Positions 12,700 through 37,838 of a DNA stretch of 64,000 nt are shown here, piece after piece. A program made the translations under genes and the position numbers. The notes below the pieces were generated by a model. It was not told where the DNA came from. It did not search any database and saw nothing but the letters and a program-made list of their open reading frames with translations. This DNA comes from an uncultured Gammaproteobacteria bacterium (lineage in GTDB: Bacteria; Pseudomonadota; Gammaproteobacteria; CAWCPV01), in the NCBI GenBank assembly GCA_963797555.1, contig CAWCPV010000002.1, forward strand, positions 1 through 64,000, read 5' to 3'. Each line of letters opens with the position of its first letter. Position 1 is the first letter of the stretch.

Positions 12700-14154
12700 G
12701 ATCGGAAAGCTGAAGCGCGAGGGTCCTCCCGCACCGGCCTTCAGCCACCGTGCCTAGCGCGGATGTCCTGAGCGCCCGAGCACCTCTAGGGCATCCCCCC
12801 AGACGTAGGCGAAGCCACCGGCCACGGAATCGGGCCGTGCGCGGTTTCTGCCAGCTCGAGGTAGCCCAGCGCCGACTTCAGATAGGGTTCGTGGATGTTC
12901 GGGGCCGAGGGAGACCTTACGATGACCGAGAAACTGGAAACCGTCAGACGGATCTTCCCCCAAGGATCGCACTGCGAAGTGGCGTGAAAGCTGCTGGCTG
13001 AGCGGGCTTCAGGGTAGTTTCGCACATCGTGAAGTACCCATGGAAGTGGTCGGTATCGTCAGGTGAGTACATTGACATGCTGGTAAGTATGTGGAATAGT
13101 CGTGGCCATGTACATCGAACGTCGTGCCCAATCGACAATCGCCTCCCGCCGTGCTGCTGCGCGAGTCCTATCGCGAGCAGGGCAAGGTCAAGAAGCGCAC
13201 TTTGGCGAATCTGAGCAAACTACCGAGGGAGGTGATCGAGCACATTCGCCAGGCCTTGGCAGGGCAGGCCATGGCGGTCAAGGAAACGATCTGTGGCGCC
13301 ATCTATGGGCTGTTATTCGTGCTGAGGGAGCTGGCCCGCCAGGGCGCAATACAGGAGTCTTTGGGCGACTCCCGGATGGCGAAACTGGTGCTGTTTTTGG
13401 TGCTGGCGCGCATTGGGCATCAGGGCTCGCGACTGTCCGCTGGGCGCTCGATCACGCGGTGCAAGCCGTGCTTGGGCTAAGCGCTTTCGATGAGAACGCA
13501 CTCTATGAGCATGGCGTTATACACATCTCCCCGTAGCTAGGGCTGCTGCCCCTCTGGACACAGCCCCCGGAAGCTGATTCAATGCCCCCATCGTTCACCA
13601 GGTGACGAGGGGGAGCAGATGGAGAAGGGGTTGCCGAGGTGGTTGGGTGGGCGCGTGCTGAGCGCGGGGGAGCTTGAGAGCATACGGCGGGAGGCTCGGC
13701 TGGCGGAGCCCCCAGTGCGAGCCGAGGTGGCGCGGCGGGTGTGTCGGGTGCTGGGGTGGACCGATGCAGCCGGTAGGCCCAAGCTGATGAGCTGTCGAGT
13801 CGGGCTGCTGCGGCTGCATCGGGCAGGCTGGATCGAGCTGCCGGCGCCGCGTAACGGCAATGGGAAGGGGCTGTCGCGCGAGCCGCAAGATTGGCCCGCT
13901 GTGTAATTCCACCGCTGGTTTGACAAATTTCCACCCGGTTTGACAGATTTTTGCGGACCTTCGCCGCCGGGGCACATGGCGAGATACGGCGCAGAGCGTT
14001 GTGCGACAAGGAAGGAGGGTCTTACCGCATGGTCGCAGATTGAGGAACCCCCCTCATCCGCCCGGTCGAGCCTTTGCCATAACCCCTCCGGGCCACGACG
14101 ACGCGAAGGGTTGGCAAGGCTAGGAGAACCCGATCAGAAACCACTCAAGCGGAA

Positions 14155-14491
14155 TTCGGGGGTCCCGGGTTCTCCGACGTATCTCTTCCTGCATGCCACG
14201 GCCTGAAGACTCCGGCGGGCTTCCACACCCTCGCCTAAGCGGGTGCTTCCTGTTGCCTTCGGGCTGTTCAAGACCCTCGGCGCCCGCAACGATCCATTTC
14301 GAAGCTGTACCAGCACTTCAGTGTGCGCGTCACCCCTACGGCCTACAGGATGCTCTGTCTACGCTTCGCCTGTCTTGTTCGCCGCTCCCTCGGCTCCGCC
14401 ACAGCCGCAAGACTCGATACGGGTGGGTGGCTAGCCCTTACCCGACGGGGACTCTCACCCCGCAAGATACGCCGAGCTTGTCCCGGCGCGA
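14155..14491 (-). ncRNA. Group IIC (attC-type) intron 5' remnant, roughly domain I only, no RT ORF
   Basis: Minus strand reads CGCGCCGGGACAAGCTCGGCGTATCTTGCGGGGTGAGAGTCCCCGTCGGGTAAGGGCTAGCCACC...GTGGCATGCAGGAAGAGATACGTCGGAGAAC; begins 2-3 nt after TTGTT of an attC bottom strand. Confidence 0.8.
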
Positions 14492-14493
14492 TG

Positions 14494-14545
14494 AACAATG
14501 GATTGAAACGACCCCTCGGGTCGCCTCAATCCTTATTGGTTAGGT
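14494..14545 (+). other. Integron attC recombination site, with its R'' end disrupted by the intron
   Basis: AAC-AATGG-ATTGAAAC-GACCCCTCGGGTC-GCCTCAAT-CCTTATTG-GTTAGGT, an imperfect hairpin ending in GTTRRRY. Confidence 0.75.
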
Positions 14546-14551
14546 CTCACG

Positions 14552-15304
14552 CTAGAAGTCTTTGACTTCGCCATCCTCGAAGAGGACGTGCTTTAGCAGG
14601 AAATTGACCCTGGTGTTCTGTATGTCTGCGTTTCTCAGGCTTTCGTGCTTCGCAATGAATTGGTTGTAGTCAAGTTTCCCTTTCCATTCGATGGACTGGC
14701 CTGAACTTACCGGATCGTTAACGGCCAAGTTCGCGCCGAGGATTTCGTTACCTAGAAGGTCAGTGAAAACGAGTGTGCCATCAAACGCGCGAACATTCTT
14801 GCCGGTTGTATTAGCAAAGGTGACGGTAAAGGTGATCGCATTGCGTCCGTACTCGCCTTCAAACCACCCTTTATTCGTGAGAGTTGCTGTAATCGGAAAT
14901 GTTTGTTTGACCTTCTTGGGTGGCTCACGATCTTCTGACTTCTTTGAGTCACCTCCTCCGAGGGCGGTACCAAGACTCTTCGAAAATCCGGCGGCCGCAT
15001 CCTGAAATGCAGAGCGCAATTCATACTTTATGTGTTCGCGACCAGCAAAGTAGCCAACAAGAAGCCCCACGGCAAACGCCGCGGCCACGAGTTGCTTGTG
15101 GCGCCCTGCTGCCCTTGTTGCAGGCGTGGTCTGTGCGTTCGGTGGAAACGCCGACATTTGCTCAGGGTTTGTCTCGCCTCTTGTCTGTGTGTTTGCCCGC
15201 TGCATTACCTTCGCGTAGATGACTCCGCACTTAGGGCACTCGTAGTCCGGAGCTGTGTCTGTTGGCTTGCGGGTGTAGCCGCACTTCGGGCATGTGATCT
15301 GCAT
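14552..15304 (-). CDS. Zn-ribbon plus single-TM hypothetical protein in an integron-like cassette
   Basis: CPKC..CPKC N-terminus, TM segment, lower GC than flanks; bounded by GTTAGGT (14539) and ACCTAAC (15334). Confidence 0.75.
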   Translation of the reverse strand: MQITCPKCGYTRKPTDTAPDYECPKCGVIYAKVMQRANTQTRGETNPEQMSAFPPNAQTTPATRAAGRHKQLVAAAFAVGLLVGYFAGREHIKYELRSAFQDAAAGFSKSLGTALGGGDSKKSEDREPPKKVKQTFPITATLTNKGWFEGEYGRNAITFTVTFANTTGKNVRAFDGTLVFTDLLGNEILGANLAVNDPVSSGQSIEWKGKLDYNQFIAKHESLRNADIQNTRVNFLLKHVLFEDGEVKDF

Positions 15305-15346
15305 GCAGGAAACTCCCTCGTGTTTGCCGTAAAACCTAACGCTGTT

Positions 15347-15940
15347 TTAACCGGCGCGGACCGCGGACCCTACAGGGTGCAGTTCCCCGGAGGGAGCGCG
15401 CTGCAAACTAGGCTGGGTCTGCTGGGTGCTAACCGGACTGTCAAGGCTGGTGGGCGCGGCGGGGGCTTCGCCGCTGCGGGTGCGGGCGCGGCCGGGGAAG
15501 CGCTTGCGCAGGTCGTTGGCAATGGTCTCGGCCCCCTGCACCCGCGCCCGGGCGGCGCCCTTGACCGCCTGGTAATAGGCAAGCGCCCCGCTGTAGACCT
15601 CGCTGCCGGCGGCCAGCACCGAGTCGTCCAGACCCGCCAGAAGCTGGCCGAGGGGCCGCTGCATGCTGGCGAGAATGTCCACCGCCTGGAGGTCGCCCTC
15701 CATCTCTTCCACGTCCAGGTAGCTGGGACGGAGGCTCGCGTCGGCGCGGGCATACTCGACCGCTTTGCGCACGAAGGCGACCGTCTTATCTCCCATCTTG
15801 GGCAGTTCCCGGCGCTCGTCCGGTACGGGCGCGAGGAGGTGCGGCAGGAGCTTGTCCTGCAGGACCTGCAGGGCGTCGCGGACGGCTTGCAGGTCCGCCT
15901 CGGGGATGTCCAGAGAGATGCGGTTGAGGCTGCTGTTCAT
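15347..15940 (-). CDS. Conserved-looking alpha-helical hypothetical protein
   Basis: ERRELPKMGDK..FV...AGSE.Y..AL.YY pattern; plausible codon usage. Confidence 0.65.
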   Translation of the reverse strand: MNSSLNRISLDIPEADLQAVRDALQVLQDKLLPHLLAPVPDERRELPKMGDKTVAFVRKAVEYARADASLRPSYLDVEEMEGDLQAVDILASMQRPLGQLLAGLDDSVLAAGSEVYSGALAYYQAVKGAARARVQGAETIANDLRKRFPGRARTRSGEAPAAPTSLDSPVSTQQTQPSLQRAPSGELHPVGSAVRAG

Positions 15941-16850
15941 GGTCGGTTCTTCTGATGGCTTCAGTGCACGGCCCACCCTGCTTTACAGGATTCGCGGGCG
16001 GGCCACGATGGGGAAGCGTCGAAACTCAGGGGCAGGCTCAACCGTTGTCGTTCTTCCCCCCTGTCAGCCTTCACCAGCCTCTTTGTCCTTCGGACCGCCC
16101 CTGCGGTCACCGGCCGGCATCTGGCTGAACGAGCGCTGCAGTCCCTGCTCGCAAGCGCTCGTGGCGCACGAGGATAGCGGGTCCGACTGGATTTTCCAAT
16201 CCCATCTTGTACCCTCCCAAAGTTCCACGCCTCCCCAACCACGGCGCCGCTGCCTCGGTTCCGACTCGGAACATCGGCCCGCGTCGCCCACGTGTAGCGA
16301 CGCACCCGCGGAAACTTATCGAGCTGCGGGATCGGCCAGCCGAGCAGCTCGTGGCATAGCTGTCCCGCCTGGGGCACCGATGCCTTCATTATGTCGGTCG
16401 ATTGGCGTTGGAATTGTTTCCAGCGCAAGCGTAGCAAGCGCCGCACGGCAGGTCTAGTCAGCCCGTGGACTCGACTGGCGTCATGTCTCCCCCACCCCAC
16501 CCCCGCACCCCGCACTGGCGCTCGGGGTCGCACAACGATATGCCTGCGCCTCATCGCCCCATGTCGTTTGCCATACTCGCAGCGACGCACCCATGCCGCT
16601 CGGTCATTCGCTGGTACCCGGCCGGGGTACAGGGTAAGGGGTCGGGTGAGATCGTGGCTCCTGGCGCCCCAGGTGAAGCGCGTTGCCGTCAGCCAGACTT
16701 AGGAGTTGCCCCCGGCCATCTTTATCTCTTACACCCGATCAGCGCGCCATGACAATGACCCTTTACGGGCCTTTGCATGCCCCTTAAAGGGCCGCGGTGA
16801 ACTGTAACGGTGTTACGGTGCTGTCACGCACTCCGGGAGGCGAAGCTCAC

Positions 16851-17156
16851 TCACAGTTCTAAGGCTTTCTCATGCTTCGCCAGATCTCCGGGCGCCTCAT
16901 ACCCATTGATCACAAGCCAGCGCGCTGCTTCTATGGGATCGACCAGGCGCCATAAGTGCTCCGGCTCGGCCGCCAGGTCGGACATGACGTGCACTATCCA
17001 TGTCCCGTTCGCCGTCCTGTAGAGTTCCTCGTGCCTTTGGCGAGACCCCGTGACATCGCTCACGCGATCTTTGCCGTCCAAATGCGTGCTCTCTCCCCAT
17101 CGCGTAGCGAGATCCCCGTCAAACCAACGTCCATCAGGCAATACAATGCGTTTCAC
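16851..17156 (-). CDS. Phage-like hypothetical protein
   Basis: Overlaps the protease stop; HEELYRTANGTW motif. Confidence 0.6.
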   Translation of the reverse strand: MKRIVLPDGRWFDGDLATRWGESTHLDGKDRVSDVTGSRQRHEELYRTANGTWIVHVMSDLAAEPEHLWRLVDPIEAARWLVINGYEAPGDLAKHEKALEL

Positions 17157-17977
17157 TGGTCAGTCCTCATGGCGCCCGTCACGTAGCGCACGGCCTGCGC
17201 CGTGCTGATGATGATCCCCCGCCGGCGCTGCTGCTCGCGGTAGGTAATGGCGGCATCGGCGATCTTCTCGGGAGACCAGCTTGCCGGCAGCCTCGATACA
17301 AATGCGCGGAACCACGCAGCCGGCTCAGCCCTGACCGTTGCGCCGCCTGATTCAACGAACTCGATCATGCCTGCCTCGTTCGGCCCTGCCATGAACGCGG
17401 CGAGCCCGGCCTGATCGCGCGGCGACACGCGGCCAGCACTGACCAGCTCGCCCACGAAGGCCGCGATCTCCTTGCGTTGCGTCAGGCTGGCCAGTCCGAT
17501 CCGGGTAACCTTTTCGCGTTCGACGAGTTCTTCGACCTCGATCACCCCACTCTTCTGCTCCCCCCAATCGACTGGCTTGAGGCCCTTGAGAGCCGGCGCT
17601 TGCGCCCCGAGAAACCCCACGTGGCGCAGATAGTAGACGCCTGGTTTCGGGTTGTCGGGGGAACTGGGGACGTAGAAGCTTGCGGAGACGCGGGAGAAGC
17701 GCTTGGCCCGCACCAGCTCGGCGAAGGACGGCTCCACATTGCACGGGTGCGCGTACAAATCCGGCGCCGCGAAGGCAAGCCGCCCCACCGCACCGTAGGC
17801 CGGCGCAGCGTGCTTGGGGTGCCCTATTACGAGCGGCGCCTCGTGCAGTGCCGGATTATAGCCCGCCGCCGAAGCAGCCAGGTGCGTATCCGTCACGGTG
17901 TACAGCGAGCCGTCCGAGGCGCGGTGGATCCCGGCGCGGAATAAATGAATGGGCGCGAGGCTGCAGTCTGGGTTCAT
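17153..17977 (-). CDS. Mu-like head protease with scaffold-like C-terminus
   Basis: HEAPLVIGHP..PAYG, VSASFY..P.NPKPG.YYLRHVGFLGA.APA.KGL; C-terminal helix IADAAITYREQQRRRGIIISTAQAVRYV. Confidence 0.85.
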   Translation of the reverse strand: MNPDCSLAPIHLFRAGIHRASDGSLYTVTDTHLAASAAGYNPALHEAPLVIGHPKHAAPAYGAVGRLAFAAPDLYAHPCNVEPSFAELVRAKRFSRVSASFYVPSSPDNPKPGVYYLRHVGFLGAQAPALKGLKPVDWGEQKSGVIEVEELVEREKVTRIGLASLTQRKEIAAFVGELVSAGRVSPRDQAGLAAFMAGPNEAGMIEFVESGGATVRAEPAAWFRAFVSRLPASWSPEKIADAAITYREQQRRRGIIISTAQAVRYVTGAMRTDQ

Positions 17978-18336
17978 GGTTTACCCGCGGCGCGCCGGCT
18001 CCGGCCCTCCCTGATAATGCGGTAGATCTGCTGCTCGGAGAGGCGAAACTGTTTCATGAGGTCGATGATGGTGCGGCGCTCCGGGCGCAGGCGATGCTCG
18101 TTCCGTATCTTCTCATGGACCTCTTTCACCCGTTGGCGCCTGCCCAAAGGCACATAAATGGCTCGACCGCCCATACTGCAATAACGCCGCTCGATGAGCT
18201 TGACAGCAAAGGCGTCCGCCTCCTCGGCTTCCATGCCAGATCGAAGCACATCAGCGACGTGAGCGGCGAGATCATCCAGAAACCCTTCGGCATCATCGCC
18301 TACGCTCAGTGTTGGAGCTTGATCTTCGATGGACAT
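17974..18336 (-). CDS. Mor/C-family transcription activator
   Basis: GGRAIYVP motif plus C-terminal HTH FRLSEQQIYRII. Confidence 0.82.
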   Translation of the reverse strand: MSIEDQAPTLSVGDDAEGFLDDLAAHVADVLRSGMEAEEADAFAVKLIERRYCSMGGRAIYVPLGRRQRVKEVHEKIRNEHRLRPERRTIIDLMKQFRLSEQQIYRIIREGRSRRAAGKP

Positions 18337-18542
18337 TCGCTGTGGGCGCCTTAATGCTCGAACGTTGCGAAACCTGGGGTCCAGTCTTCGAGGAGCTTCC
18401 GCTCCAGTTCCGCCAGCGCAGCCTTCTGACGCGCGAGGCGCGCAGCGCGCCTCTTCAGCCCCCGCTCGCGCCGAAGTAATTCCGCCACCCGGAGAGGATC
18501 TGCCTCGTTCGTGTCCATGACTCTCACTCTCCCCGCCCGGCG

Positions 18543-19168
18543 CTACCCGAGCTGAATCCCCAGCCTCCGAATCCGTTCCAGCTCTTGGGCTTCCGCCTCG
18601 CTATAGCCAGCCACATACTTTCTGGCCAGGGCGATCTCGCTGGGATGATTGGGGTCGGCATGCGGCACGCCGCTCGGAAGGGTCGGCACGGGAAGATGCG
18701 CGGTGTTAATCCCCAACGGAAGGAAACCACGTCCCCTGCGGACGGACGGCGCATGTTTCCCGGCCAGGCTATCCAATATTTGGAGCCGGCGCAGTAGCTC
18801 CATCGCCCCGAAAGCATATTCGACGTATTCACCGGTGGTCCGATCGGCTTCGGCTCGGAAGAATGCCAGAAGCACATCCGGAGTCATGGCCTCCAGGCGC
18901 CGCACTTCGGCCTGGGCTTCCTCGGCACGCAACTCCAATCCGGGAATGGCGCGCCTCGCCTGGGCCACCTGCTTGCACGCTGCGGCGCTTTCCGTCTCGG
19001 CTTCCGCCGTCTTTTCTGCGAGCGCCGCCCCGGCTGCGTCGACATCAGATTGTTCCGTCTCAGTTGCGAAAGCGCTTGGACCAGAAATCCAAGATCGGCA
19101 AGCCGCGGTAATCGCTTCGGAAGTCCGGAGACAGACCACCGCGTTTCGAACGTCCTTGTTTGAGTCAT
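18543..19168 (-). CDS. Coiled-coil hypothetical protein (5' end probably frameshifted)
   Basis: Ala/Glu-rich heptad-like region; operonic position between DUF3486 and Mor genes. Confidence 0.55.
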
Positions 19169-19169
19169 C

Positions 19170-19520
19170 TTAGGTTTCCCTTTGGCCCGTTTCGCATCGT
19201 TCGCCCTCTCTGCTCCTGGAGGATTCTTCATCCTGTCTCCAGGCGAACTCTGCCGGTACGGACACCCCTAATGCGGCGATAGCCGCATCGAGCACGCTCC
19301 GCCAGGCTTTTAGAACCTCGATCAGGCCGGCATTGGACGTGATGGCCGTCTTGAGCCGCTTGCCATGCCGCGCGACGGCAGATCTGGATACGGGGTAGCC
19401 TTGGCTCGCGAGCCAGGCGGCGTGCTCGTCGTAGCGGAAAAACCCGGATGTGACAATCCGCGCGTCGATCTCGCGCAGAAGGGCGGGCGGCAATAGTGAC
19501 AGGACGTTACGCCGGGGCAT
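19170..19520 (-). CDS. DUF3486 / Mu gp27-like protein (putative small terminase), short form
   Basis: LPP...ID..I..SGF..Y....WL...GY.VSRSAVARHG pattern; GGAGG RBS upstream. Confidence 0.72.
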   Translation of the reverse strand: MPRRNVLSLLPPALLREIDARIVTSGFFRYDEHAAWLASQGYPVSRSAVARHGKRLKTAITSNAGLIEVLKAWRSVLDAAIAALGVSVPAEFAWRQDEESSRSREGERCETGQRET

Positions 19521-19544
19521 GGGTCGTTTCCTCCGGGTTCATAC

Positions 19545-20709
19545 TAGTGTAGTGCTTGGTAATTAACGGAACATATATGATCTATCGCTGTCCAGGGCTA
19601 TGAAGCCAAGACAGGAGAGCACTGATGCGAGTAGCCCCGATGGTCCGACTGAGCGCGGAAGAACAGCGGAGCCTGAGGCGTGTGTCGCGTTCGAACACCA
19701 CGAGTGTGAGGCTGGCCCGCCGAGCGCGCATTGTGCTGTTGGCGGCGGTGGGCATGGAGAACAAGGCCATCGCGGCGGAACTCAAGATTGGGCGTGTGCA
19801 GGTTGGGCGTTGGCGGGAGCGCTATGCGCAAGGCGGGCTGGCGGCCATCGAGTGTGACCTGCCGCGCGGAGGTCGTCAGCCCAAGGTGGATGCCGCCGAG
19901 ATCGTGCGACGCACGACTCAGACCCAGCCCTTAGCAGCGACACAGTGGAGTACGCGGACCCTGGCTAAGGAAATGGGAGTGAGCGACACCACGGTGCTGC
20001 GCGTGTGGCATGCCCATGGGCTGAAGCCGCATCGTGTCGAATCCTTCAAGGTATCGCGCGACCCGAAATTCACCGAGAAGTTGGAGGACATCGTCGGGCT
20101 GTATCTGTCCCCCCCGGAGCATGCTTTGGTGTTGTGCTGCGACGAGAAGAGTCAGGTTCAGGCGCTGGATCGTACCCAACCTGGCCTGCCGCTGAAGAAG
20201 GGGCGGGCTGCGACCATGACCCATGACTACAAGCGCCATGGCACCACGACACTGTTTGCTGCCCTGAACACCTTGGAGGGTTCCGTGATTGCCCGCTGCG
20301 AGCCGCACCATCGCCACACGGAGTGGCTCACCTTCCTGCGCCAAATCGACCGCGAGACGCCCAAGGACAAGGAACTGCACTTGGTCTGCGACAACTACGC
20401 CACCCACAAACATCCCAACGTTCAGAAATGGCTGGGAAAACACCCGCGTTTCCACATCCATTTCACGCCCACCTCAGCATCCTGGTTGAACATGGTCGAG
20501 CGATTCTTCCGCGACCTGACTGTGGATCGGTTGCGCCGTGGCGTGTTTCGAAGCGTCCCCGAGTTGATCCCTGCCATCAACCGCTATGTCGATGCCCACA
20601 ACGCCAATCCCAAACCCTTCATCTGGACCGCCAAGGCTAAGGACATCCTGCAGAAGGTCATCCGCGCCAACGCACGTTTAAGTTCTAAACAGAATGAAGC
20701 ACTACACTA
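19545..20709 (+). mobile_element. IS630-family element, intact transposase 19625-20710
   Basis: TAGTGTAGTGCTT...AAGCACTACACTA ends in a CTAG target; DEKS, THDYKRHGT, DNYATHK and SWLNMVERFF motifs. Confidence 0.95.
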
Positions 20710-21264
20710 GCTGCCCACGGCTCCTGATATCCCATCGTCATCTCTTGCCCCGTAGCTCAGCATGTCGAACAGTTTCCGCGTCCCGTCCTCATCGAGGCCA
20801 TACTTGCCGACAATCTGCACCAATAGAAGCATCCGCTCCGCGTCGAAATCGACGTCACTGCGGCTCTGCTGCACCCGCTGGATCAGATCTATCGCTAGGG
20901 ATACCTTGGTAACTGCGGAATCCATCCTGTCGATCTTGGCCGGCTCCGACGCGGTCGGTCTGGGCGCGCTCCGGCATTCTGCGGCAGCCGCCAGCTCCTG
21001 GATGGCCCCGTCAAGCACCTCCAAGGTCTCCTCGGCTGCCTTGGCCCGCTCCTCGGCGATGAGAAGCAGATTGCCAGCGTGCAGGCAGTCCGTGGGGTAA
21101 TCGCTGTCGTCGCCAGAGAAGGCTGGTATGATATTGGTCACATGCGCCAGAGTTTGCAACTCCAGGATCTGGCAATACAGATCATGAGAGGCTTTCCTCG
21201 CTTTCTTCTTGGCAGACAGGCCGGCTGCGCCTTCCGATGGCCCGTTATCCGGGGTGTTGCTCAT
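20707..21264 (-). CDS. Hypothetical protein of the mini-Mu early operon
   Basis: ORF with AGGAG RBS downstream of gemA. Confidence 0.55.
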   Translation of the reverse strand: MSNTPDNGPSEGAAGLSAKKKARKASHDLYCQILELQTLAHVTNIIPAFSGDDSDYPTDCLHAGNLLLIAEERAKAAEETLEVLDGAIQELAAAAECRSAPRPTASEPAKIDRMDSAVTKVSLAIDLIQRVQQSRSDVDFDAERMLLLVQIVGKYGLDEDGTRKLFDMLSYGARDDDGISGAVGS

Positions 21265-21349
21265 CTGAGTTATCTCCTGCCGCGCATCGCGGCTCCTTGT
21301 CCACAACATCCGCTCACGCGGGTTCACTCGGCGGCCCCGCCCGGCATCC

Positions 21350-21811
21350 CTAAGCCCGTTCAGCTTCCGCACTGCGCCGCGCCAGCGATCTCTCGGCGGA
21401 CTGCTCTAGCGCGATAAGCAGGTCCCTCATCCCGTGTTTGGTCAGGAAACGGGGGCTCGAAACCTTGGCCACGCGCCGGCTCACCGTAGCCAGCCGGGCA
21501 TCCGAGAGGCCGGTCCAACCCAGCTCGCGGGCGAGCCAGGCGAGCTTGTCCCATTGCCCATCGCTCGGGCGGTCTTCCTGGTGAATGCCCCGCCCGCCGC
21601 GGTTTTTCCCATCCAGCGTGCCGCTTTCCCGGACGGCTCGCGCCACCATTTCGAGTTCGGCGTCCGTCAGGTCCCCGGCCGAGCGCTTGCCCGTAACCTC
21701 TTCCAAGAAATCACGGTACTGCTTCTCGGTGATCCGGCTCCGTTTCAATCCGATGTGGATCTGGGCAAGCAGCGATTGCCGGCGAGATTTGCCCGCCTTA
21801 TCGGTTGGCAT
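21350..21811 (-). CDS. gemA: GemA / DUF1018 family protein
   Basis: LAQIHIG....EKQYRDFL..VTGKRSAGDLT..EL motif. Confidence 0.82.
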   Translation of the reverse strand: MPTDKAGKSRRQSLLAQIHIGLKRSRITEKQYRDFLEEVTGKRSAGDLTDAELEMVARAVRESGTLDGKNRGGRGIHQEDRPSDGQWDKLAWLARELGWTGLSDARLATVSRRVAKVSSPRFLTKHGMRDLLIALEQSAERSLARRSAEAERA

Positions 21812-22760
21812 CGCTTTCCCCTCCGAGGTCGCGCCAGGCTGCGCGCAGGTATCGCGTATCGACCGGAGATCCCTCCGCGCCAGCGAGTATGGCGGCGAGG
21901 CGTAGCGTCTTGGTGACTGCGCGCAGAGATCCAGGTGTCTTCGCGATGGACCCAAGAAAGTCGCGCTCGGCCTTGCCGTGGACCCGCCAGGCATCAGCCA
22001 CGGCCTTGACATCATCTGCCAGCGCCCCCGCGAGATAGAGCCGTTTCCCGATGCGCGAGAAGAGCTGAGCGAACTCCGCGGCGCGAGAGCCGCCCCGCAG
22101 GCGATGGTACACGGTCTCGTTGCCCGCCAACGCCAACCCAATGCCGCACGCATCATGGAGCGCCCGCAACTCTTCCAGCGCAGCCACGCTCAGGTGCTGG
22201 CACTCGTCGACGATCAGCAGGCCGCGGGTATCACGCATGCGGCGGAGCAGTTCCCGCCGGAGCCTGGAGGTCCAGCCGGGCAGCTCGCGCATGCCTACCG
22301 CTTCGGCGATCTCTTCGAGAACAGCCTTACAGCCGCTGATTGCTGGGCTAACCGTTGCGGCCCACGTACTGGGGCTCGTCGCGGCATAGCGGCGCAAGGA
22401 AACGGTCTTCCCCACTCCGGCCGCGCCGTATACAACGGCGAGATCCCCGGCCATCTGAGCGAAGCTCAGTGTGATGAGTATCTTGCCGGCGGTGGGTGTT
22501 TCTATCCAATCGGGGCTGACCGGAAGTGCCGTCTGAGCCCGTTGGCGCCGGCTCACCAGCCAGGTCTCGATCTTTCCCTCCACGGCTACGCTGTCGCCCT
22601 CGTATTCGCCCTTCAGCCAGCGGCTCAGGGCGGATCCGGAGATCCCTGCCTCACGGGCAATGCGAGCCTGGGTCTCGCCTTCCTCGAGAAGAGCCTGGAT
22701 ACTGGCTCTCAGGCCCCCTTCAACAGGCGTTTCAAGCAGTTTGATTACGGCGTTGCTCAT
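21798..22760 (-). CDS. MuB-like AAA+ transposition ATPase
   Basis: N-terminal HTH, Walker A GAAGVGKT, Walker B LLIVDECQHL, AQLFSRIG. Confidence 0.93.
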   Translation of the reverse strand: MSNAVIKLLETPVEGGLRASIQALLEEGETQARIAREAGISGSALSRWLKGEYEGDSVAVEGKIETWLVSRRQRAQTALPVSPDWIETPTAGKILITLSFAQMAGDLAVVYGAAGVGKTVSLRRYAATSPSTWAATVSPAISGCKAVLEEIAEAVGMRELPGWTSRLRRELLRRMRDTRGLLIVDECQHLSVAALEELRALHDACGIGLALAGNETVYHRLRGGSRAAEFAQLFSRIGKRLYLAGALADDVKAVADAWRVHGKAERDFLGSIAKTPGSLRAVTKTLRLAAILAGAEGSPVDTRYLRAAWRDLGGESDANR

Positions 22761-22845
22761 GGTAAAGTAACCTCGTTCTCTGTTGGCGGCATGCGCCGCC
22801 GGGTCGCCTCCACCCTGGGCATGGTGTCCGCCCTGCCCAGGGCAC

Positions 22846-24818
22846 CTAAAAACCTATTACCCTGCGAAGGGTGGCGTCGACATCAATGTCGGAACCATCC
22901 TCTGCAGGATCGTCAGTGCGCTGCAGCCTGGGGCGAAAGATTTCGGCGACATTGGGTGGCGGAATGTCAGGCGTCTCCGGCTCGCATTCCGGCCACCGCC
23001 TGGTAGCCGCCATGTCGCGGCGAGCCCGGTCCTCCAGTTTGCGGGCTTTCTTGTAAGCGCCTTGGGCGCGGGCGTGATCCTTGCCAGCCTGTTGATCTCG
23101 AAATCCCGCAGGATCTATAAGCGGTGCCTCGCAGATGAATCTTCCGCCGTCGTAAAGAGCTATAGGGACCGTCGCATCCTCCGGATCAAACCGCGCAGTA
23201 TAGGGTCCGCGGCTGCGGATCTCCGAAAGTTTTGGGCTCCAGTAGTGATTCTTGAGTAATACGATGCGGTGGTCTTTTTGCCTCAGCCTGACGCTTTCAG
23301 CGGCGAGCAGGCAGAGGCGCATTTGCTCCTTCGTCGGTTGACGCACGGTGGTGTGAGGAAGGAGATCCTTATAAACCTGCAGGGGGCTGCACCCATTCAT
23401 GCCCTGGCCGCGATGGGATTCATCGGCGTAGAATGAGATCTCGCGCTCCAGCCGTTTAACATAGGCTTCTAGCGGAACCGCGTTTTTCACATCGAATTCT
23501 TCTGGCCGATCTGTTGGTGAGTTACCGCAGAATGAGCCAGCAAACTCCGGATGTCTGTCAACCCGGTCGGCCATGATTCTGAACCAACTTTCCACAGGTT
23601 TTGCGGCGCCACGTTCCGGCTTTACGAAGACAACCTGGATTGAAAGGCTCGCGAAAATTCCCAGCGGATCGTCTGGCCTGATTTTGCCGCGGTAGCGGGT
23701 CGGTTGCCCGGAGCTGAGCAGGCGCCCGGCGTAGCCGCGCCCATTGTCCACGAGAACCTCATTCGGCAGTGCCCGCGAATACGCAATCGCCTTGCGAAAG
23801 GCGAGCCGAATAAGATCAGCGGACTCCGTCCGCCCGACGACGAATCCAAGCACCAAACGAGTCCGAACATCGCGCCAGAGCACCACGGTGGGGCGCGCCC
23901 GAGAGCCATCGGGCCAGCGGCAAAACACATCGGCTCGGCGCCCATCGGACTCCCACAAAGAATGCAGCCCCAGCGCCGTGTAATCGCGCCTCTGCGCAGG
24001 AAAAGTCTCGGCAAGCGCCTTGGGTCCGTGCCGTCCCAGCATGACGCGCCAATGAGGAAGCTGCCGAAGCCGGCGGCGGGCAGACTCGTAGGTCGGGACC
24101 ATCAAGCCGAGCGGCTGCGCCCAACGCTCGACCTGGCGAGGCACTGCCTTAACGATTGCCGGCTCTGCCGCAAATACAGGTCCTCGATCCGGAGCCACAC
24201 ATCCGAGGGAATCTCCTGGCGCGTTGCGCAGCCCCGATATCGTGGAGCCAGAGCGGGCAGCCAGTCCGCTGGGTCAAGGTGTTCCACCACTTTCACCCAG
24301 CGCCATATCGACGATTCGCTCGTTTCAAAGAGACCCGCCACCGCGAGGTATCGCGCCCCCTTCGATCCCTCGATCTCGTGAAATTTCAACACGGCGCGGT
24401 GCCGTTTCTCGGCAGTGGCCTTCGCCCTCGCCAGAAGCCCGTCAAACCACTGCCAACAATTTGCATTTTGTTCTGGGGTGAGGCGCTGGAGATCGGCTTC
24501 CGGCCGCTGATCGTTGACGCTGGCATCCGCGGCAATCTGAGAGCCCGGCGTGAGCACATCGTGCTTTCCGATCTGGTGGGCAGCCTGGACCGCGACTGGA
24601 AGAGATGACACCAACACCTCGTAGCGCCTGCCAGCCCGGCCGCTTCCGCGAACCTCGCGAACCCGCAGCCGCGCCCCGCCGCGCCATATCTGCCCCCGCT
24701 GCGCCGCGCGGAGAGCCTTATGGGCTGCTTGCCGCGTGATGCCCGCGAGATTGGCAAGGTCCGACGTTCCAATCCAGGCGGCCCGTTCGGGTGGTCGAGT
24801 GGGTGAATGGCGGATCAT
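22846..24818 (-). CDS. MuA-like DDE transposase with one frameshift near 24190
   Basis: N-terminal Mu DNA-binding domain (RYEVLVSSLP), W.PALAP, WESDG, VDNGRGY and AKPVESWF motifs. Confidence 0.9.
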
Positions 24819-25051
24819 CCCGGCAGGGCGGGCTCCAAGGAAGCCTCCGGAGAACCTCGGATAGGCGAGGCACCGGCGCGTTTCATGCCAAGAGCGACGG
24901 CTATCTGATGCCCTTTGCCGCGCGTGGCCTTGAGCTAGCCGCTCATCACGGCGTAGACGGTCCGCACCGCGTATCCGTGTTGATGCGCCCAACTGGCGAT
25001 GGTCTCACCACGCCTGGCGAAGCCAGCCTTGATCTGGCGCCTGCTTTTCAT
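24815..25051 (-). pseudogene. Ner-like (BcepMu gp16-type) DNA-binding protein with an internal TAG at 24935-24937
   Basis: F.RRGETIASWA..HGY...VYAVMSG*LKATRGKGHQIAVALGMK; divergent from the repressor. Confidence 0.75.
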
Positions 25052-25140
25052 TCTTGAGCAAACCGTGTCATGATGGTGCACAATTTCTGACAACCAGACG
25101 ATAGAATACTCACGAATCATGTATTGTGCAAGAAGTCTCC

Positions 25141-25782
25141 ATGTTTTCTGAACACACCTTCGAGGGCGTGGCTCAGAGGCTCAAGGATGCTCTGGGACTC
25201 AAGAGCTTCAACGCACTCGCCCGCGCGTTGGGGATATCGTCTAGCTCGTTCTCGAACAGGAAGCAGACTAACTCTCTGCCCTACAAAGCCATCGTGGATC
25301 TAGCACTGTCGCGCAACGTCAGCCTCGATTGGCTGTTCTATGGCCAAGGGCAACCGTTCCGAGGGGGCGATGAAACGGAGGTCTCCCCCGGCTCCGAGGT
25401 CCGACCGCGGTTGCTGATGGAAATTTACGCTCAGTTGGTCCCCCCGTTGCGCGCGCCTGGTAAGTGGCAAAGCGAGATCGGGTTGGATAAGGCGGATGCG
25501 GAGCTACTGGAAGACCTTCAGTTCGAAGCGTTAAGGCGTGATCTCTTCCAAGTCGCCAGGGCTGGCGATATCTACAACAAGGTGGCGACCATTTCGAGCG
25601 AGAAGAAGCGCAACGAAATAATCCGGCGGGAAGTGAAGGCCACGTGGGACGCCTGGGACTTGTACTTGCTCGCCGCGGAGCTTCAGGGAGCTGGGCGAGT
25701 GCCGCCAGCACAACCGAACGCCGATAAAGACAACCATGTTCGCGAGGACCGCCCGGCGAAGGCAGCTGATGAACCAGAGTAG
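25141..25782 (+). CDS. Phage CI-type HTH repressor
   Basis: RLKDALG....ALARALGISSSSFSN...NSLPY...VSLDWLFYG. Confidence 0.82.
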   Translation: MFSEHTFEGVAQRLKDALGLKSFNALARALGISSSSFSNRKQTNSLPYKAIVDLALSRNVSLDWLFYGQGQPFRGGDETEVSPGSEVRPRLLMEIYAQLVPPLRAPGKWQSEIGLDKADAELLEDLQFEALRRDLFQVARAGDIYNKVATISSEKKRNEIIRREVKATWDAWDLYLLAAELQGAGRVPPAQPNADKDNHVREDRPAKAADEPE

Positions 25783-25849
25783 CGGAGCGGGAGGTGCAGC
25801 CCTCCGGCGCGGTATCCGCGGAGACGCCTGACATTCCGCCACCCCAATG

Positions 25850-26410
25850 CTGGGAGCGGGGAGAAGAGCAACACTGGCAGGCGCGGCTGTGGCACCGGCT
25901 GGTGCAGTAAGGTCCCGCGGACCACTGGGTGCGGGTGCATGATGCCTTCCTGCAAGCCCTGAACGCGCAAGGTATGGCGGACCGGCTATCGCGGCGGGTG
26001 TCCATGTTCGCCGTGCCGGGCGCTGTCGCCGAGCTACCTGGATCTGCTCGCCCGCATCGCCGAGCGCACCGAAGTGCACCTGTTCTGCCTCACGGCATCA
26101 GAGGATTACCCCGCCGACCTGGACGATCCGCGGCGGCTCGCCCGGCGCAGGGACCGGCGGCGGCGCGCTGGAGGGGTCGACGACAGCGCCTAACGCCGAT
26201 CTGGGGAATCCGCTCCTGGCCTCGCTCGGGCGCATGGCCCAGGCATTCGTCTCCCAGCTTCAGGACTACCCGCACCAGGACGTGGACGCCGGCCCGACTT
26301 GGAGGCCAGGGCATGGCCTGCTGGCTGTCCGCTCGCTCTCGCCGAGCGCCTGGGCGTCTGCGCCAACGTGGCCTTCCCGCTCCCCGCCGGCTTCCTCTGG
26401 GAGGTGTTTC
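25850..26410 (+). pseudogene. recC: Fragments of exodeoxyribonuclease V gamma subunit captured inside the mini-Mu
   Basis: WQARLW, YLDLLARIAERTEVHLF, GNPLLASLG and LGVCANVAFPLPAGFLWEVF motifs. Confidence 0.75.
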
Positions 26411-26412
26411 GG

Positions 26413-26651
26413 GGTTTACCCATAGGTTTACCCAGGTCTTTGGGCCTGGCAGCTAGAGCCGCAATGGTTTCCGGCTTTAGTTGTAAACCACGGGTAAACT
26501 ACGGCTTCGTGGTTGTAAACCAATTCTCGTGTCCCGGCGGGGCCTGGCAGCTAGAGCCGCAATGGTTTCCGGCTTAGTTGTAAACCACGGCTTCGTGGTT
26601 TACCCATAGGTTTACGCGACTTGTAAACCAATTCTCGTGTCCCGGCGGGGC
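26413..26651. repeat. Interleaved direct-repeat array with about nine GTAAAC/GTTTAC boxes
   Basis: ~50-bp repeat at 26442 and 26540; 30-bp repeat at 26513 and 26621; GGTTTACCCATAGGTTTAC twice. Confidence 0.85.
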
Positions 26652-27494
26652 TTCTCGGGCCGCCGAAGCACGCTAACCTATTGTTTGAAGCGGATTGCAA
26701 AATTTCTGCAAGACCCTTGCAACGTTGGGCGCGATCTGTCAAACCAGCCGTGTAAAATGGCCGGGGCCATCTCTCTAAGCTGCCTTGCTGCCTGATTCGC
26801 GGGTGAACTCATTTCCATCCGAACGCTCACCAGCACAACGCTGTTCCTGATTGTCCCGCGATGGCTCGCTTCGTCCCCATCTTTCAGTCAAACCTGAGGT
26901 GGAATCTCACGCTGAGGTACCGGTGGTGGGCGCAGTGCGGGATTTGCAGGGTCTGCACTTGGCGCCGGTTGCTGACCCGGCGGACTCGGCGCTGTGGAAT
27001 GGGCTCATCGACCGGTACCATTATTTGGGCTACCGGCCGCTGCCCGGTGCCCAGCTGCGCTATCTGATTCGCTGGGACGCGGGTGTGGTGGGGGCCATGG
27101 GCTTCGGGGCCGCGGCCTGGAAGGTGGGCGTGCGCGACCGCTGGATTGGCTGGGATGCGCCAAGCCGTGCGCAGCACCTGGGGCAGGTGCTGAACCATGC
27201 GCGGTTTCTCATTCTGCCGTGGGTGCGGGTGGCGAACCTGGCCTCCAAGGTCCTCGGGCGGGCCGCGCGGCAGGTGCCGGGCGAGTTCGAAGAGCGCTAC
27301 GGGGTACGCCCGGTGCTGCTGGAGACCTTTGTCGAGGCCGGCCGGTTCGCGGGCACCTGCTACCGGGCGGCCAACTGGCATCATCTGGGGCAGACCACCG
27401 GGCGGGGCAAGCTCGACCGTGAGGCGCTGCCCATCAAGGATGTCTATGTGTATCCGCTCGATGGCCGCTTTCGCCGGGCGCTCGGGGGAGCCGC

Positions 27495-28829
27495 ATGAAT
27501 GCCCTGGCCGAGGAGCTGGCCGCCATCGACTTGGGTGATGCGCGCCTCAACCGCCGGGCGCGACGCACCCTGGAGAAGCTGGGAGCCCATCCCATGCAGA
27601 GCATTCCCACCGCCTGTGGCGGCTGGGCCGAGACCTTGGCGGCTTATCGGCTGTTCGACCATCCCCAGGTCACCGCCCAGGCGGTGCTCGAGCCCCATTA
27701 CGCCTGCACCGAGCAGCGTATGCGCGAATACTCGGTGGTGCTGTGCATCCAAGACACCACGGAAGGGGACTATAGCGGCAAGAACGACATCGTCGGGCTG
27801 GGCCCGCTCAACTACGAGACCCGCCGTGGATTGTACCTGCACCCCACCCTCGCCGTGACCCCCGAGCGGGTGCCCTTGGGGCTATTGGATCTATGGAGCT
27901 GGACCCGCGAGGCGGGCAGTCTGGGCAAGGAGCAGGGCCGCCGGCCCATCGAGGAAAAAGAGAGCCTGCGCTGGCTGGAGGGTTATCGACGCGTCTCGGA
28001 GCTCATCGAGTCCCTGCCCGAGACCCAGTTGGTCTATGTCGCCGACCGCGAGGCCGACATCTACGAGGTGCTCGCGGAACGCGCCGCCACGCAGCCCTGC
28101 GCCGAGTGGCTCATCCGCGCCGAGCGCGCCCGGCTCGCAAGCGCGCCGGTGCTGGCCGAGGCCGAATTCGACCTGCCCGCCACCGCTAGGCGTCCGGCGC
28201 GGCGCATCCACCAGCAACTGCGCGTCGCACGCCTCACTTTCAAGGCCCCGCATCGCTCGGACCGCACCCTGGCGGACATCGAGGTGAGCGCCGTGCTGGC
28301 CCGCGAGGTGGACCCGCCCCAGGGCGAGGAGCCCATCGAGTGGCTGCTCCTCACCAGCCTCCCCGTCGAGACCGCCGAGCAGGCCCTGGAGAAGCTCCAA
28401 TGGTACCTCTGCCGGTGGCAAATCGAGGTGTTCTTCAAGATCCTCAAAAGCGGCTGCCGCATCGAGAAGCTGCAGCTCGAGACCCTCGAACGCCTGGAGC
28501 CCGCGCTCGCCTTCTACCTCATCATCGCCTGGCGGGTGCTCTACCTCACCCTGCTCGGGCGCGACTGCCCGCAGATGCCCTGCAACGTGGTGTTCGCCGA
28601 GGAGGAATGGCGCGCGGTGTATATCGTCACCAAGCGCCAGCCCCCGCCTGAGACACCCCCCTCGCTCGATGCGATGGTGCGTATGGTGGCGAGCTTCGGC
28701 GGCTTCCTCAATCGCAAGGGCGACGGCTTCCCGGGTCCGCAAAGCCTGTGGATCGGGCTGCAGCGAACCCGCGACTTCGTGCTCGCCATGGACGCACAAC
28801 GGGCCTCACAGAGCCCGAGATGTGTATAA
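27495..28829 (+). CDS. IS4 (IS50-group) transposase
   Basis: LGDARLNRR, IQDTTE, VADREADI, YLCRWQIEVFFKILKSGC. Confidence 0.95.
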   Translation: MNALAEELAAIDLGDARLNRRARRTLEKLGAHPMQSIPTACGGWAETLAAYRLFDHPQVTAQAVLEPHYACTEQRMREYSVVLCIQDTTEGDYSGKNDIVGLGPLNYETRRGLYLHPTLAVTPERVPLGLLDLWSWTREAGSLGKEQGRRPIEEKESLRWLEGYRRVSELIESLPETQLVYVADREADIYEVLAERAATQPCAEWLIRAERARLASAPVLAEAEFDLPATARRPARRIHQQLRVARLTFKAPHRSDRTLADIEVSAVLAREVDPPQGEEPIEWLLLTSLPVETAEQALEKLQWYLCRWQIEVFFKILKSGCRIEKLQLETLERLEPALAFYLIIAWRVLYLTLLGRDCPQMPCNVVFAEEEWRAVYIVTKRQPPPETPPSLDAMVRMVASFGGFLNRKGDGFPGPQSLWIGLQRTRDFVLAMDAQRASQSPRCV

Positions 28830-37818: not shown

Positions 37819-37838
37819 GTAGGATACCCGAGTATCCC

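What the first reader, a model, noticed from the sequence alone, without database searches (positions are those of the whole stretch)
13902..26909. Precisely bounded 13 kb mini-Mu with no virion genes: candidate transposable phage satellite
Seen: TG...CA termini and a 5-bp TSD (CGCTG) that splits a DUF4338 ORF in frame. There are two tandem TTCCACC..GGTTTGACA sites at one end and two sites about 130 bp apart at the repressor end. Gene order is repressor | ner-A-B-gemA-hyp-DUF3486-coiled coil-mor-protease-hyp. No portal, large terminase, major capsid, tail or lysis gene lies between the ends. Known: this end architecture, the 5-bp TSD and the early gene order match phage Mu, whose genome is about three times longer. 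The classical satellites (P4, PICI, PLE) integrate via integrases, not MuA/MuB. Inference: the compact, tightly coupled operon suggests a streamlined unit that replicates by transposition and borrows particles from a helper Mu-like phage.
Basis: partly seen in the sequence, partly recalled or inferred. Interest (0 to 1): 0.9.

Follow-up and report, generated by a model that had tools for sequence, protein, structure and literature searches.

The report
Broken natural mini-Mu, satellite role unproven
This is a 13-kb relative of phage Mu that kept its ends and its copying genes but lost all particle-building genes and is now broken; nothing found here shows that it rides in another phage's particles.

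Summary
Window 13902-26909 is a Mu-family element with TG...CA ends, matching terminal sites and a 5-bp CGCTG duplication. Ten uninterrupted copies of the target IS in the same genome act as empty sites.

- MuA is split by a frameshift.
- A host IS630 copy sits in the operon.
- A 3'-truncated group II intron piece lies at one end.
- Scrambled recC fragments lie at the other end.
- About a quarter of the element is non-coding.

No portal, large terminase, capsid, tail or lysis gene is present. An intact gpI-type protease/scaffold gene and a gp27 N-terminal domain remain.

The element is single-copy. The genome (84.6% complete) shows no other Mu transposase, Mu portal or Mu-type (gpT) capsid gene. 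No relative closer than about 55% protein identity turned up in any collection. The satellite idea therefore has no positive support.

The internal recC junk is much more diverged than the very young IS that the element interrupts. The element was thus already rearranged when it last moved.

Best reading: a defective natural mini-Mu, recently inactivated. A dedicated satellite lineage remains possible, at about 0.2.

The parts
13510..13901 (+). Left part of the interrupted host IS (DruA/DUF4338-like ORF plus IS4/Tn5-type transposase). Its last 5 bp, CGCTG (13897-13901), are one copy of the target duplication.
   Evidence: 10 uninterrupted copies elsewhere, with flank matches overlapping by 5 bp; 7 private alignment columns in 399.
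13902..13945 (+). Mu-type end distal to the repressor (attR-like). It begins with TG and carries two tandem TTCCACC..GGTTTGACA sites.
14155..14492 (-). 5' fragment (338 nt) of a group II intron, truncated at its 3' side.
   Evidence: Rfam RF02005, 116.7 bits, E 5.6e-33; other genomic copies run on for 690 to 1379 bp or more, and the nearest is 89% identical.
14552..15304 (-). p250: N-terminal zinc ribbon, a hydrophobic stretch (my reading of the sequence) and a C-terminal domain of unknown function. GC is lower than the rest. Probable accessory gene.
   Evidence: (phrog_16659, E 8e-5).
15347..15976 (-). p209: hypothetical protein. Pieces of related genes lie on contig C14.
   Evidence: (GC3 0.84).
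15977..16850 (.). About 875 bp with no credible gene. It contains pieces 85-90% identical to unrelated places in the genome. Candidate deletion scar.
16851..17156 (-). p101: a whole small protein of a phage-associated family, translationally coupled to the protease gene.
   Evidence: 307 representatives at E<=1e-3, colinear; pLDDT 91; no fold match. GTGA overlap.
17153..17977 (-). gpI-type head protease/scaffold. The N and C domains are present and the middle linker is short.
   Evidence: phrog_976, E 3.7e-64; best relatives 55-57% identical and about 370 aa; alignment colinear, with G52-H53-P54 and S98 in invariant columns.
17974..18336 (-). Mor/C-family late transcription activator. Its stop overlaps the protease start.
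   Evidence: Pfam Mor, E 7.6e-15; phrog_532..
It has no relatives and lies in the same frame as gp27N, separated by one TAA.
19170..19520 (-). gp27N: only the N-terminal DNA-binding half of a Mu gp27/DUF3486 small-terminase-like protein.
   Evidence: Pfam positions 3-75 of 173; phrog_426; relatives are 182-210 aa.
19544..20710 (+). IS630-family insertion sequence. It lies between the stop of hyp221 and the ribosome-binding site of gp27N, flanked by TA.
   Evidence: DDE_3; at least 19 other full-length copies at 98-100% identity..
20707..21372 (-). hyp221: ORF without relatives.
21350..21811 (-). GemA.
   Evidence: Pfam GemA, E 1.7e-13; the ATG at 21811 overlaps the MuB stop.
21798..22760 (-). 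MuB AAA+ transposition protein, intact.
   Evidence: Phage-MuB_C, E 7.6e-23, and AAA_22; 40% identical to Mu B.
22846..24992 (-). MuA transposase in two frames. The frameshift lies between 24120 and 24186, inside the I-gamma DNA-binding subdomain.
   Evidence: HTH_Tnp_Mu_2 split 3-59 and 54-109, DDE_2, Mu-transpos_C; 5 of 5 relatives are single ORFs of 576-687 aa that match in frame 2 and then frame 1; a contig covering 24085-24235 is identical.
24935..25120 (-). Ner-like HTH (BcepMu gp16 family). Only the first 36 of 55 profile positions are matched.
25126..25782 (+). CI-type repressor, reading towards the near end.
   Evidence: Phage_CI_repr, E 1.2e-18.
25819..26413 (.). Junk: a 31-nt inverted copy of MuA coding sequence (25819-25849), then two permuted fragments of the host recC gene (25849-26288 and 26304-26413).
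26442..26651 (.). Two direct repeats of about 100-110 nt, 82% alike. Role unknown.
26738..26909 (-). Mu-type end next to the repressor (attL-like). The inner site is at 26738-26755 and the terminal site at 26887-26904. The element ends in CA.
26910..28836 (+). Right part of the interrupted host IS. It begins with the second CGCTG (26910-26914).
   Evidence: 0 private differences in 1927 columns.

Best explanation
The element is a defective derivative of a Mu-family transposable phage, a natural mini-Mu.

How it arrived. It entered its present site by MuA/MuB transposition, which made the 5-bp duplication. The target was a very young copy of a host insertion sequence.

What it keeps. It retains the two ends, the repressor/Ner switch, A, B, GemA, a Mor/C-type activator, a gpI-type protease/scaffold gene and a few small genes.

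What it lost. It has lost lysis, large terminase, portal, capsid and tail genes, so it cannot make particles.

When it was rearranged. The junk between repressor and end is far more diverged than the IS that the element interrupts. The element was therefore already rearranged when it last moved. I infer that it moved as a short or shortening unit driven by its own A and B.

What disabled it since. A frameshift now splits MuA. An IS630 copy has also landed in the operon, and I infer that it is polar on the genes downstream. This copy is therefore immobile unless a related transposase acts on its ends.

Shown: the anatomy, the duplication, the breaks and the order of events. Inferred: loss of the virion genes by deletion, and past self-driven transposition.
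For: - Mu-family identity: Pfam DDE_2, Mu-transpos_C, HTH_Tnp_Mu_2, Phage-MuB_C, GemA, Mor and CI repressor. MuB is 40% identical to Mu B.
- Ends and duplication: and 10 of 10 empty-site copies.
- MuA frameshift: 5 of 5 relatives are single ORFs. A contig of a public run agrees with the sequence there.
- IS630: at least 19 other full-length copies at 98-100%.
- Group II intron: only the 5' 338 nt are present. From what I recall of retrohoming, incomplete copies are cut at the 5' side. A 3' cut therefore means a later deletion.
- recC pieces: they are permuted, and carry 14 substitutions spread 6/3/5 over codon positions, 4 synonymous and 10 not, plus 5 gaps in 551 columns.
- gp27: only the N-terminal half is present.
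- Non-coding share: 25% is neither own gene nor IS630.
- Canonical relatives carry the missing modules. The annotated map of YPCBV-1 shows them. Mu portal genes lie 10-12 kb from MuA in 3 of 5 relatives' genomes. In two full-length viral records, Mor lies 12 kb from the protease, or gp27 lies 5.4 kb from it.
- Timing: recC junk has 14/551 substitutions, against 2/2319 in the interrupted IS, Fisher p 7e-9.
- Copy number and helper: one copy. No Mu portal, gpT or second transposase in the genome.
Against: - Three junctions are too neat for fresh random deletions. MuB/GemA, mor/protease and protease/p101 overlap like long-standing operon neighbours.
- The remaining genes are whole. At the recC fragment's level of substitution, unconstrained coding sequence of 8.5 kb would gain about 7 stop codons (1 of 2000 simulations had none). 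For the five genes checked against relatives, 214 of 2000 simulations had none. The genes therefore seem to have been kept by selection after the rearrangement. That fits a persisting mobile unit better than a rotting remnant.
- No remnant of any virion gene was detected in the gaps.
- Replicative transposition should leave a second copy, and none is seen. The assembly is only 84.6% complete.
Confidence: 0.62

Rival explanations
1. A dedicated satellite lineage: a mini-Mu that replicates by its own A/B and relies on a full-length Mu-like helper for particles. Mor would switch on the helper's late genes. The gpI-like protease/scaffold (with p101) and the gp27-like DNA-binding domain would bias head assembly or packaging towards the element.
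For: - Virion genes are absent while a head protease/scaffold gene is intact and coupled to mor and p101.
- Mor directly upstream of a protease-like gene is rare. It was seen in 1 of 109 other protease loci by tblastn with three Mor queries. It recurs in the short, portal-less Mu-like cluster L015.
- A second short Mu-like cluster without virion genes, L016, spans at most 12.3 kb between host genes. Its genome has no Mu portal.
- The junk is older than the last insertion.
- Laboratory mini-Mu units are mobilised by helper Mu. The passages I read cover their engineering. Packaging by a helper is recalled, not read here.
Against: - No helper in the genome, no second copy, and no close relative anywhere.
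- L015 still carries a tape-measure gene, and its protease-like ORF lacks the GHP histidine. It looks like a remnant.
- The mor-protease order also occurs in a full-length, roughly 38-kb prophage, where capsid and tail genes follow (G418). The order is therefore no satellite hallmark.
- This copy is broken.
Confidence: 0.2
2. A full-length prophage that lysogenised this site recently and then lost its virion modules here within a short time, in a genome with very active IS elements and introns.
For: - The genome is crowded with mobile DNA. There are at least 19 IS630 copies, at least 10 copies of the target IS, and several intron copies. Transposases fill the neighbourhood.
- The two junk-filled gaps sit where a G418-type phage has its packaging and capsid/tail modules.
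Against: - The interrupted IS has 0 private differences in 1927 bp. The internal recC junk differs from the resident recC by 2.5% in a neutral pattern, and the intron piece is only 89% like the nearest resident copy.
- Material acquired after arrival should be near-identical to its source, as the IS630 copy is.
Confidence: 0.15
3. Assembly artefact or chimera.
For: None found. The genome is a 20-contig assembly rich in repeats.
Against: - The junctions are exact to the base, with a 5-bp duplication and 10 empty sites.
- Contigs from four public runs match unique parts of the element without differences. Those runs may come from the same source as the assembly.
Confidence: 0.02

Closest known systems
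Bacteriophage Mu and Mu-like transposable phages (for example Chromohalobacter phage YPCBV-1)
   Same: - Transposase A, ATPase B, GemA, Mor, and a CI-type repressor reading towards the near end.
- TG...CA ends with several transposase sites, and a 5-bp duplication.
- MuB is 40% identical to Mu B and 44% to that of YPCBV-1.
   Different: - 13.0 kb against 35-37 kb.
- Compared with the annotated YPCBV-1 map, several blocks are missing. These are the early accessory block between B and GemA, the lysis genes, large terminase, portal, F, G, capsid and tail genes.
- MuA is frameshifted.
Laboratory mini-Mu (Mud, mini-D3112) elements
   Same: Two Mu ends plus A/B, with or without a few early genes and no lethal or virion functions. 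They transpose on their own. This element would work the same way if MuA were whole.
   Different: Those are engineered (passages read in PMC8705779). This one arose naturally and also keeps Mor and a head protease/scaffold gene.
Phage satellites P4, PICI/SaPI, PLE (recalled, not tested by any search)
   Same: No structural genes. Possible hijacking genes, namely an activator of late genes, a scaffold-like protein and a small-terminase-like DNA-binding domain.
   Different: - Those integrate with integrases and have known helpers and many family members.
- Here mobility is by MuA/MuB, no helper is known, and there is a single broken copy.
Defective Mu-like prophages reported in bacterial genomes (recalled: the partial Mu-like prophages compared with the Mu genome sequence)
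   Same: A Mu-like gene set with missing modules and pseudogenes.
   Different: Here both ends and the duplication are intact. Every virion structural gene is gone, while the transposition and regulatory core stays coupled.

Membership tests
Mu-family transposable element | MuA-type DDE transposase with Mu end-binding domains | tested here: met
   Pfam DDE_2 (E 2.1e-29), Mu-transpos_C and HTH_Tnp_Mu_2. The gene is split by one frameshift.
Mu-family transposable element | MuB-type AAA+ target-capture protein | tested here: met
   Phage-MuB_C (E 7.6e-23) and AAA_22. 40% identity to Mu B.
Mu-family transposable element | TG...CA termini with repeated transposase sites in inverted orientation, and a 5-bp target duplication | tested here: met
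   Ten empty sites overlap by 5 bp.
Mu-like phage (complete virus) | Portal, large terminase, major capsid, tail and lysis genes between the ends | tested here: not met
   No such family in any ORF scanned. No remnant by blastx.
Phage satellite | Lacks virion genes yet is packaged in a helper's particles | not testable with these tools
   The lack of virion genes is shown. No particle data were on hand. The four runs found are soil metagenome contigs at low depth.
Phage satellite | A helper phage of matching type is present or known | tested here: not met
   No second Mu transposase, Mu portal or gpT in the genome, which is 84.6% complete. Element proteins find nothing else Mu-like by tblastn.
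Phage satellite | A family of similar short elements at independent sites | tested here: not met
   - One copy in the genome.
- Best MuB relatives are 50-55% identical in genome, viral and metagenome collections.
- In 400 other genomes of the class, 1 had a match, at 36%.
- The best protease relative is 57% identical in 5.8 billion proteins.
Phage satellite | Genes that redirect helper assembly or packaging | tested here: inconclusive
   An intact gpI-type protease/scaffold and a gp27 N-domain are present. No function was tested.
Defective prophage | Pseudogenes, insertions and deletion scars inside a phage-derived unit | tested here: met
   MuA frameshift, IS630, 3'-truncated intron, recC fragments, truncated gp27.

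The most novel reading that the evidence does not exclude
The element represents a lineage of self-replicating mini-Mu elements that shed all virion genes long before their last move. These elements persist under selection and spread as satellites of full-length Mu-like phages. They would use Mor to turn on the helper's late genes and a retained gpI-type protease/scaffold (with p101) to exploit or remodel its heads. That would make them the first satellites that integrate and replicate by transposition.
Probability: 0.18. Interest if true: 0.85.

Novelty: new member of a known kind. Interest (0 to 1): 0.45.

Why it matters
Known phage satellites integrate with integrases. Three literature searches here found none described that moves by Mu-type transposition (listings only).

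A natural mini-Mu that stayed mobile after losing its particle genes would be a step from phage to transposon or to satellite. It would also move neighbouring host DNA, as laboratory mini-Mu units do.

This copy gives a clean anatomy and a relative dating of events. It is single and broken, so it is a lead for targeted searches rather than a demonstration.

Tried and rejected
A second call sent in the same turn failed for a missing field. The tool was not tried again.
- Sequencing runs. No RNA holder is listed. Parts of the element without cover in the four runs say nothing.
- Apparent excision joint. The joint 13896 to 26910, seen in all 4 runs, comes from the roughly ten uninterrupted copies of the target IS. 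It is no sign of excision.
- End motif in viral contigs. There were 64 single matches, and 0 of the 64 loci encode any relative of the element's proteins. I take these as chance.
- End look-alikes in the genome. Two lie on C12 and C13, inside a 352-bp repeat that runs on across the supposed end. Rejected.
- gp27 C-terminal remnant. One was suggested at E 0.04. Rejected as too weak.
- cc198 against the L015 coiled-coil protein. E was 6e-5 in a search of 13 sequences, at 22% identity. Not relied on, since low-complexity sequence can give this.
- Ends of L015 and L016. None were found, so I call these clusters rather than bounded elements.
- p101. The model is confident (pLDDT 91.2). There is no fold match in PDB (best E 0.56) or BFVD (best E 0.039). 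The Atlas gives only hypothetical phage proteins.
- p209. The Atlas gives only hypothetical proteins.
- PADLOC. It gave only a zinc-ribbon hit and DruA on the flanking IS.
- NCBIfam. Of the 8 element proteins it scanned, it named only the Ner-like protein.
- Programmed frameshift in MuA. I saw no slippery heptamer in the sequence printed. Rejected by inspection only.
- Mor-protease adjacency counts. They rest on tblastn with three Mor queries. I ran no positive control, so distant Mor genes may have been missed. The upstream ORFs listed were not scanned against Pfam.
- Literature. In searches I saw listings and abstract starts only. In PMC8705779 I read three passages. No supplements were consulted.

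Full report
**1. The observation**

The element runs from TG at 13902 to CA at 26909, with CGCTG on both sides. The 18-nt site TTCCACC-N3-GGTTTGAC occurs without mismatch only twice in the window. The copies lie 5 nt inside each terminus, in inverted orientation. A 2-mismatch copy lies at 26738-26755, and a second tandem GGTTTGACA lies at 13937.

The target is itself a multi-copy insertion sequence, made of a DruA/DUF4338-like ORF followed by an IS4/Tn5-type transposase. Ten uninterrupted copies lie elsewhere in the genome. In all ten, the matches to the left and right flanks overlap by exactly 5 bp. The duplication and the exact limits are therefore shown by empty sites, not only by eye. The two pieces of the split ORF fall in one frame by arithmetic.

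**2. What lies between the ends**

Reading from the repressor end:
- a CI-type repressor on the + strand;
- a short Ner-like HTH, then MuA, MuB and GemA;
- an ORF without relatives (hyp221);
- the N-terminal half of a gp27/DUF3486 protein;
- a Mor/C-family activator;
- a gpI-type head protease/scaffold;
- a small conserved protein (p101);
- two hypothetical proteins (p209, p250).

These assignments rest.

No portal, large terminase, capsid, tail or lysis family appears in any ORF scanned. blastx of the gaps against all ORFs of 112 related loci finds no remnant of one.

The protease/scaffold is colinear with relatives of about 370 aa over its N and C domains. It lacks only their variable middle part. 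It shares the columns that are invariant in the alignment, among them G52-H53-P54 and S98.

**3.

- MuA is in two frames. The Pfam I-gamma domain is split between the two ORFs. Five of five relatives are single ORFs of 576-687 aa, and they match this DNA first in one frame and then in another. The switch lies between 24120 and 24186. A contig of a public soil run covers 24085-24235 without a difference. That run may share its source with the assembly.
- A 1167-bp IS630-family element sits at 19544-20710. At least 19 other full-length copies at 98-100% identity lie in the genome. Without it, the stop of hyp221 is followed 21 nt later by the gp27N start, behind a GGAGGA. It is thus a plain insertion and no deletion scar.
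- The 338 nt at 14155-14492 are the 5' part of a group II intron. Other copies run on for 690 to 1379 bp or more. The piece is cut at its 3' side, which needs a later deletion (recalled mechanism of retrohoming).
- The 1.1 kb between repressor and end holds a 31-nt inverted copy of MuA coding sequence and two permuted pieces of the host's recC gene.
- About 875 bp at 15977-16850 have no credible gene. They contain pieces 85-90% like other places in the genome.

The element's own genes cover 66% of it, the IS630 covers 9%, and the rest is 25%.

**4. Order of events**

The interrupted IS copy has 0 private differences in 1927 columns on the right. On the left it has 7 private columns in 399, which are a 6-bp indel and at most 2 substitutions. 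The IS, and hence the Mu insertion, is very young.

The recC pieces differ from the resident recC by 14 substitutions and 5 gaps in 551 columns. The substitutions are spread 6/3/5 over codon positions, 4 synonymous and 10 not, which is the pattern of a decaying pseudogene. The contrast of 14/551 against 2/2319 gives Fisher p 7e-9.

The junk was therefore inside the element well before it landed here. The IS630 copy, at 100% identity, and the single frameshift came last.

At the recC level of change, 8.5 kb of unconstrained coding sequence would gain about 7 stop codons. One of 2000 simulations had none. For MuB, GemA, Mor, protease and p101 alone, 214 of 2000 had none. This suggests, but does not prove, that the genes were kept by selection after the rearrangement.

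**5. Copies, helper, relatives**

- The element occurs once in the 5.35-Mb assembly, which has 20 contigs and is 84.6% complete.
- The assembly has no other Mu transposase, no Mu portal and no gpT capsid. tblastn with the element's proteins finds nothing else Mu-like.
- The genome is the only one of its family and order in the collection.
- In 400 other genomes of its class, one had a MuB match, at 36%.
- Scans of genome, viral and metagenome contigs gave MuB relatives of at most 53-55% identity.
- The protease's best relative among 5.8 billion proteins is 57% identical.
- cc198 and hyp221 have no relatives.

The test for independent short copies therefore comes back empty. Nothing at all is close enough to compare.

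**6. Distant relatives**

Of five relatives' genomes, three carry a Mu portal 10-12 kb from MuA. Viral records of 37-40 kb are full-length. In one, Mor lies 12 kb from the protease, and in another gp27 lies 5.4 kb from it. The annotated phage YPCBV-1 shows the canonical order.

Two relatives have no Mu portal in their genomes.
- L016 (Geomonas) is a cluster of at most 12.3 kb between host genes. It holds repressor, A, B, an S24 peptidase, GemA, a Mor fusion and a 545-aa DDE_3 protein.
- L015 has A, B, GemA, Mor, then a 149-aa protease-like ORF without the GHP histidine, a coiled-coil protein, a tape-measure gene and a related DDE_3 protein. Its leftover tail gene marks it as a remnant.

Mor directly before the protease is rare. 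It was seen in 0 of 80 viral loci and in 1 of 109 loci in all. The counts rest on tblastn with three Mor queries, and I ran no positive control.

The one case, in genome G418, is a roughly 38-kb prophage. There the packaging genes lie on the other strand, left of the early genes, and Mor is followed by protease, capsid, gp36 and tail genes. The mor-protease order can thus be the native order of a full phage. The two junk-filled gaps of our element lie just where that phage keeps its virion modules.

**7. Reading**

The best-supported account is a defective Mu-family derivative that lost its virion modules by deletion. It kept a working transposition and control core for some time, moved once more into a young IS, and was then disabled by a frameshift and an IS630.

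The satellite reading needs a helper, packaging and a family, and none of these was found. What keeps it alive is the following:
- the neat junctions MuB/GemA, mor/protease and protease/p101;
- the intact protease/scaffold;
- the age of the junk;
- the two other short Mu-like clusters.

I put the defective mini-Mu at 0.62, the dedicated satellite at about 0.2, loss entirely after arrival at 0.15, and an artefact at 0.02.

**8. Comparison and verdict**

The element is a member of the Mu family by transposase, B protein, ends and duplication. It is not a complete Mu-like phage. It works, or worked, like a laboratory mini-Mu. It fails two testable satellite criteria, helper and family, and two others could not be settled.

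Three literature searches (listings only) turned up no described satellite that moves by Mu-type transposition. If the novel reading proved true it would be new. As it stands, this is a new member of a known kind, the defective Mu-like prophage, with an unusually clean anatomy and a useful internal dating. Interest is 0.45.

Noticed in passing
window 13510-13901 plus 26910-28836, and 10 other places in the genome: The target is an insertion sequence of about 2.3 kb. It pairs a DruA/DUF4338-like ORF with an IS4/Tn5-type transposase and is present in at least 11 copies. DUF4338 is better known from the Druantia defence system, but here it travels as part of an IS.
   Followed up: partly
window 12900-13509 and 28837-29200: The target IS copy is itself inserted into another repeated sequence. 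The matches to copies on C3 and C17 overlap by about 10 bp. The locus is thus nested four deep: repeat, IS4-type IS, Mu-like element, IS630.
   Followed up: partly
window 14492-14551: The 60 bp just upstream of the intron's 5' end recur at 94-98% identity at four other places in the genome. They may be the intron's preferred target motif.
   Followed up: no
window 26442-26651: Two direct repeats of about 100-110 nt, 82% alike, rich in GTAAACC/GGTTTAC words, lie between the recC junk and the inner end site. They could be operator or enhancer-like sites, or an old duplication.
   Followed up: no
window 31331-33019 (-) and 37752-38798 (+): A 562-aa ORF with a Mu-transposase C-terminal-like domain (Mu-transpos_C_2, E 3.6e-6) and a TIR-domain protein lie 4-11 kb beyond the element. 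They sit among IS66, DUF772 and further Tn5-type transposases, so the whole window is a mobile-DNA dump.
   Followed up: no
L015 18998-20668 and L016 15160-16797: Two distant short Mu-like clusters each carry, at their far side, a long (545-556 aa) HTH plus DDE_3 protein. The two are 43% identical over their full length. This may be a shared component and not a chance IS.
   Followed up: partly
G418:C4:187700-225800 (L212, L146, L213): A roughly 38-kb Mu-like prophage with an unusual layout. gp27, large terminase and portal lie on the minus strand, left of the early genes. Mor is followed directly by protease, capsid and tail genes on the plus strand.
   Followed up: partly
genome-wide (family and order level): The genome is the sole representative of its family and order in the collection searched. 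It carries very many IS and group II intron copies.
   Followed up: no
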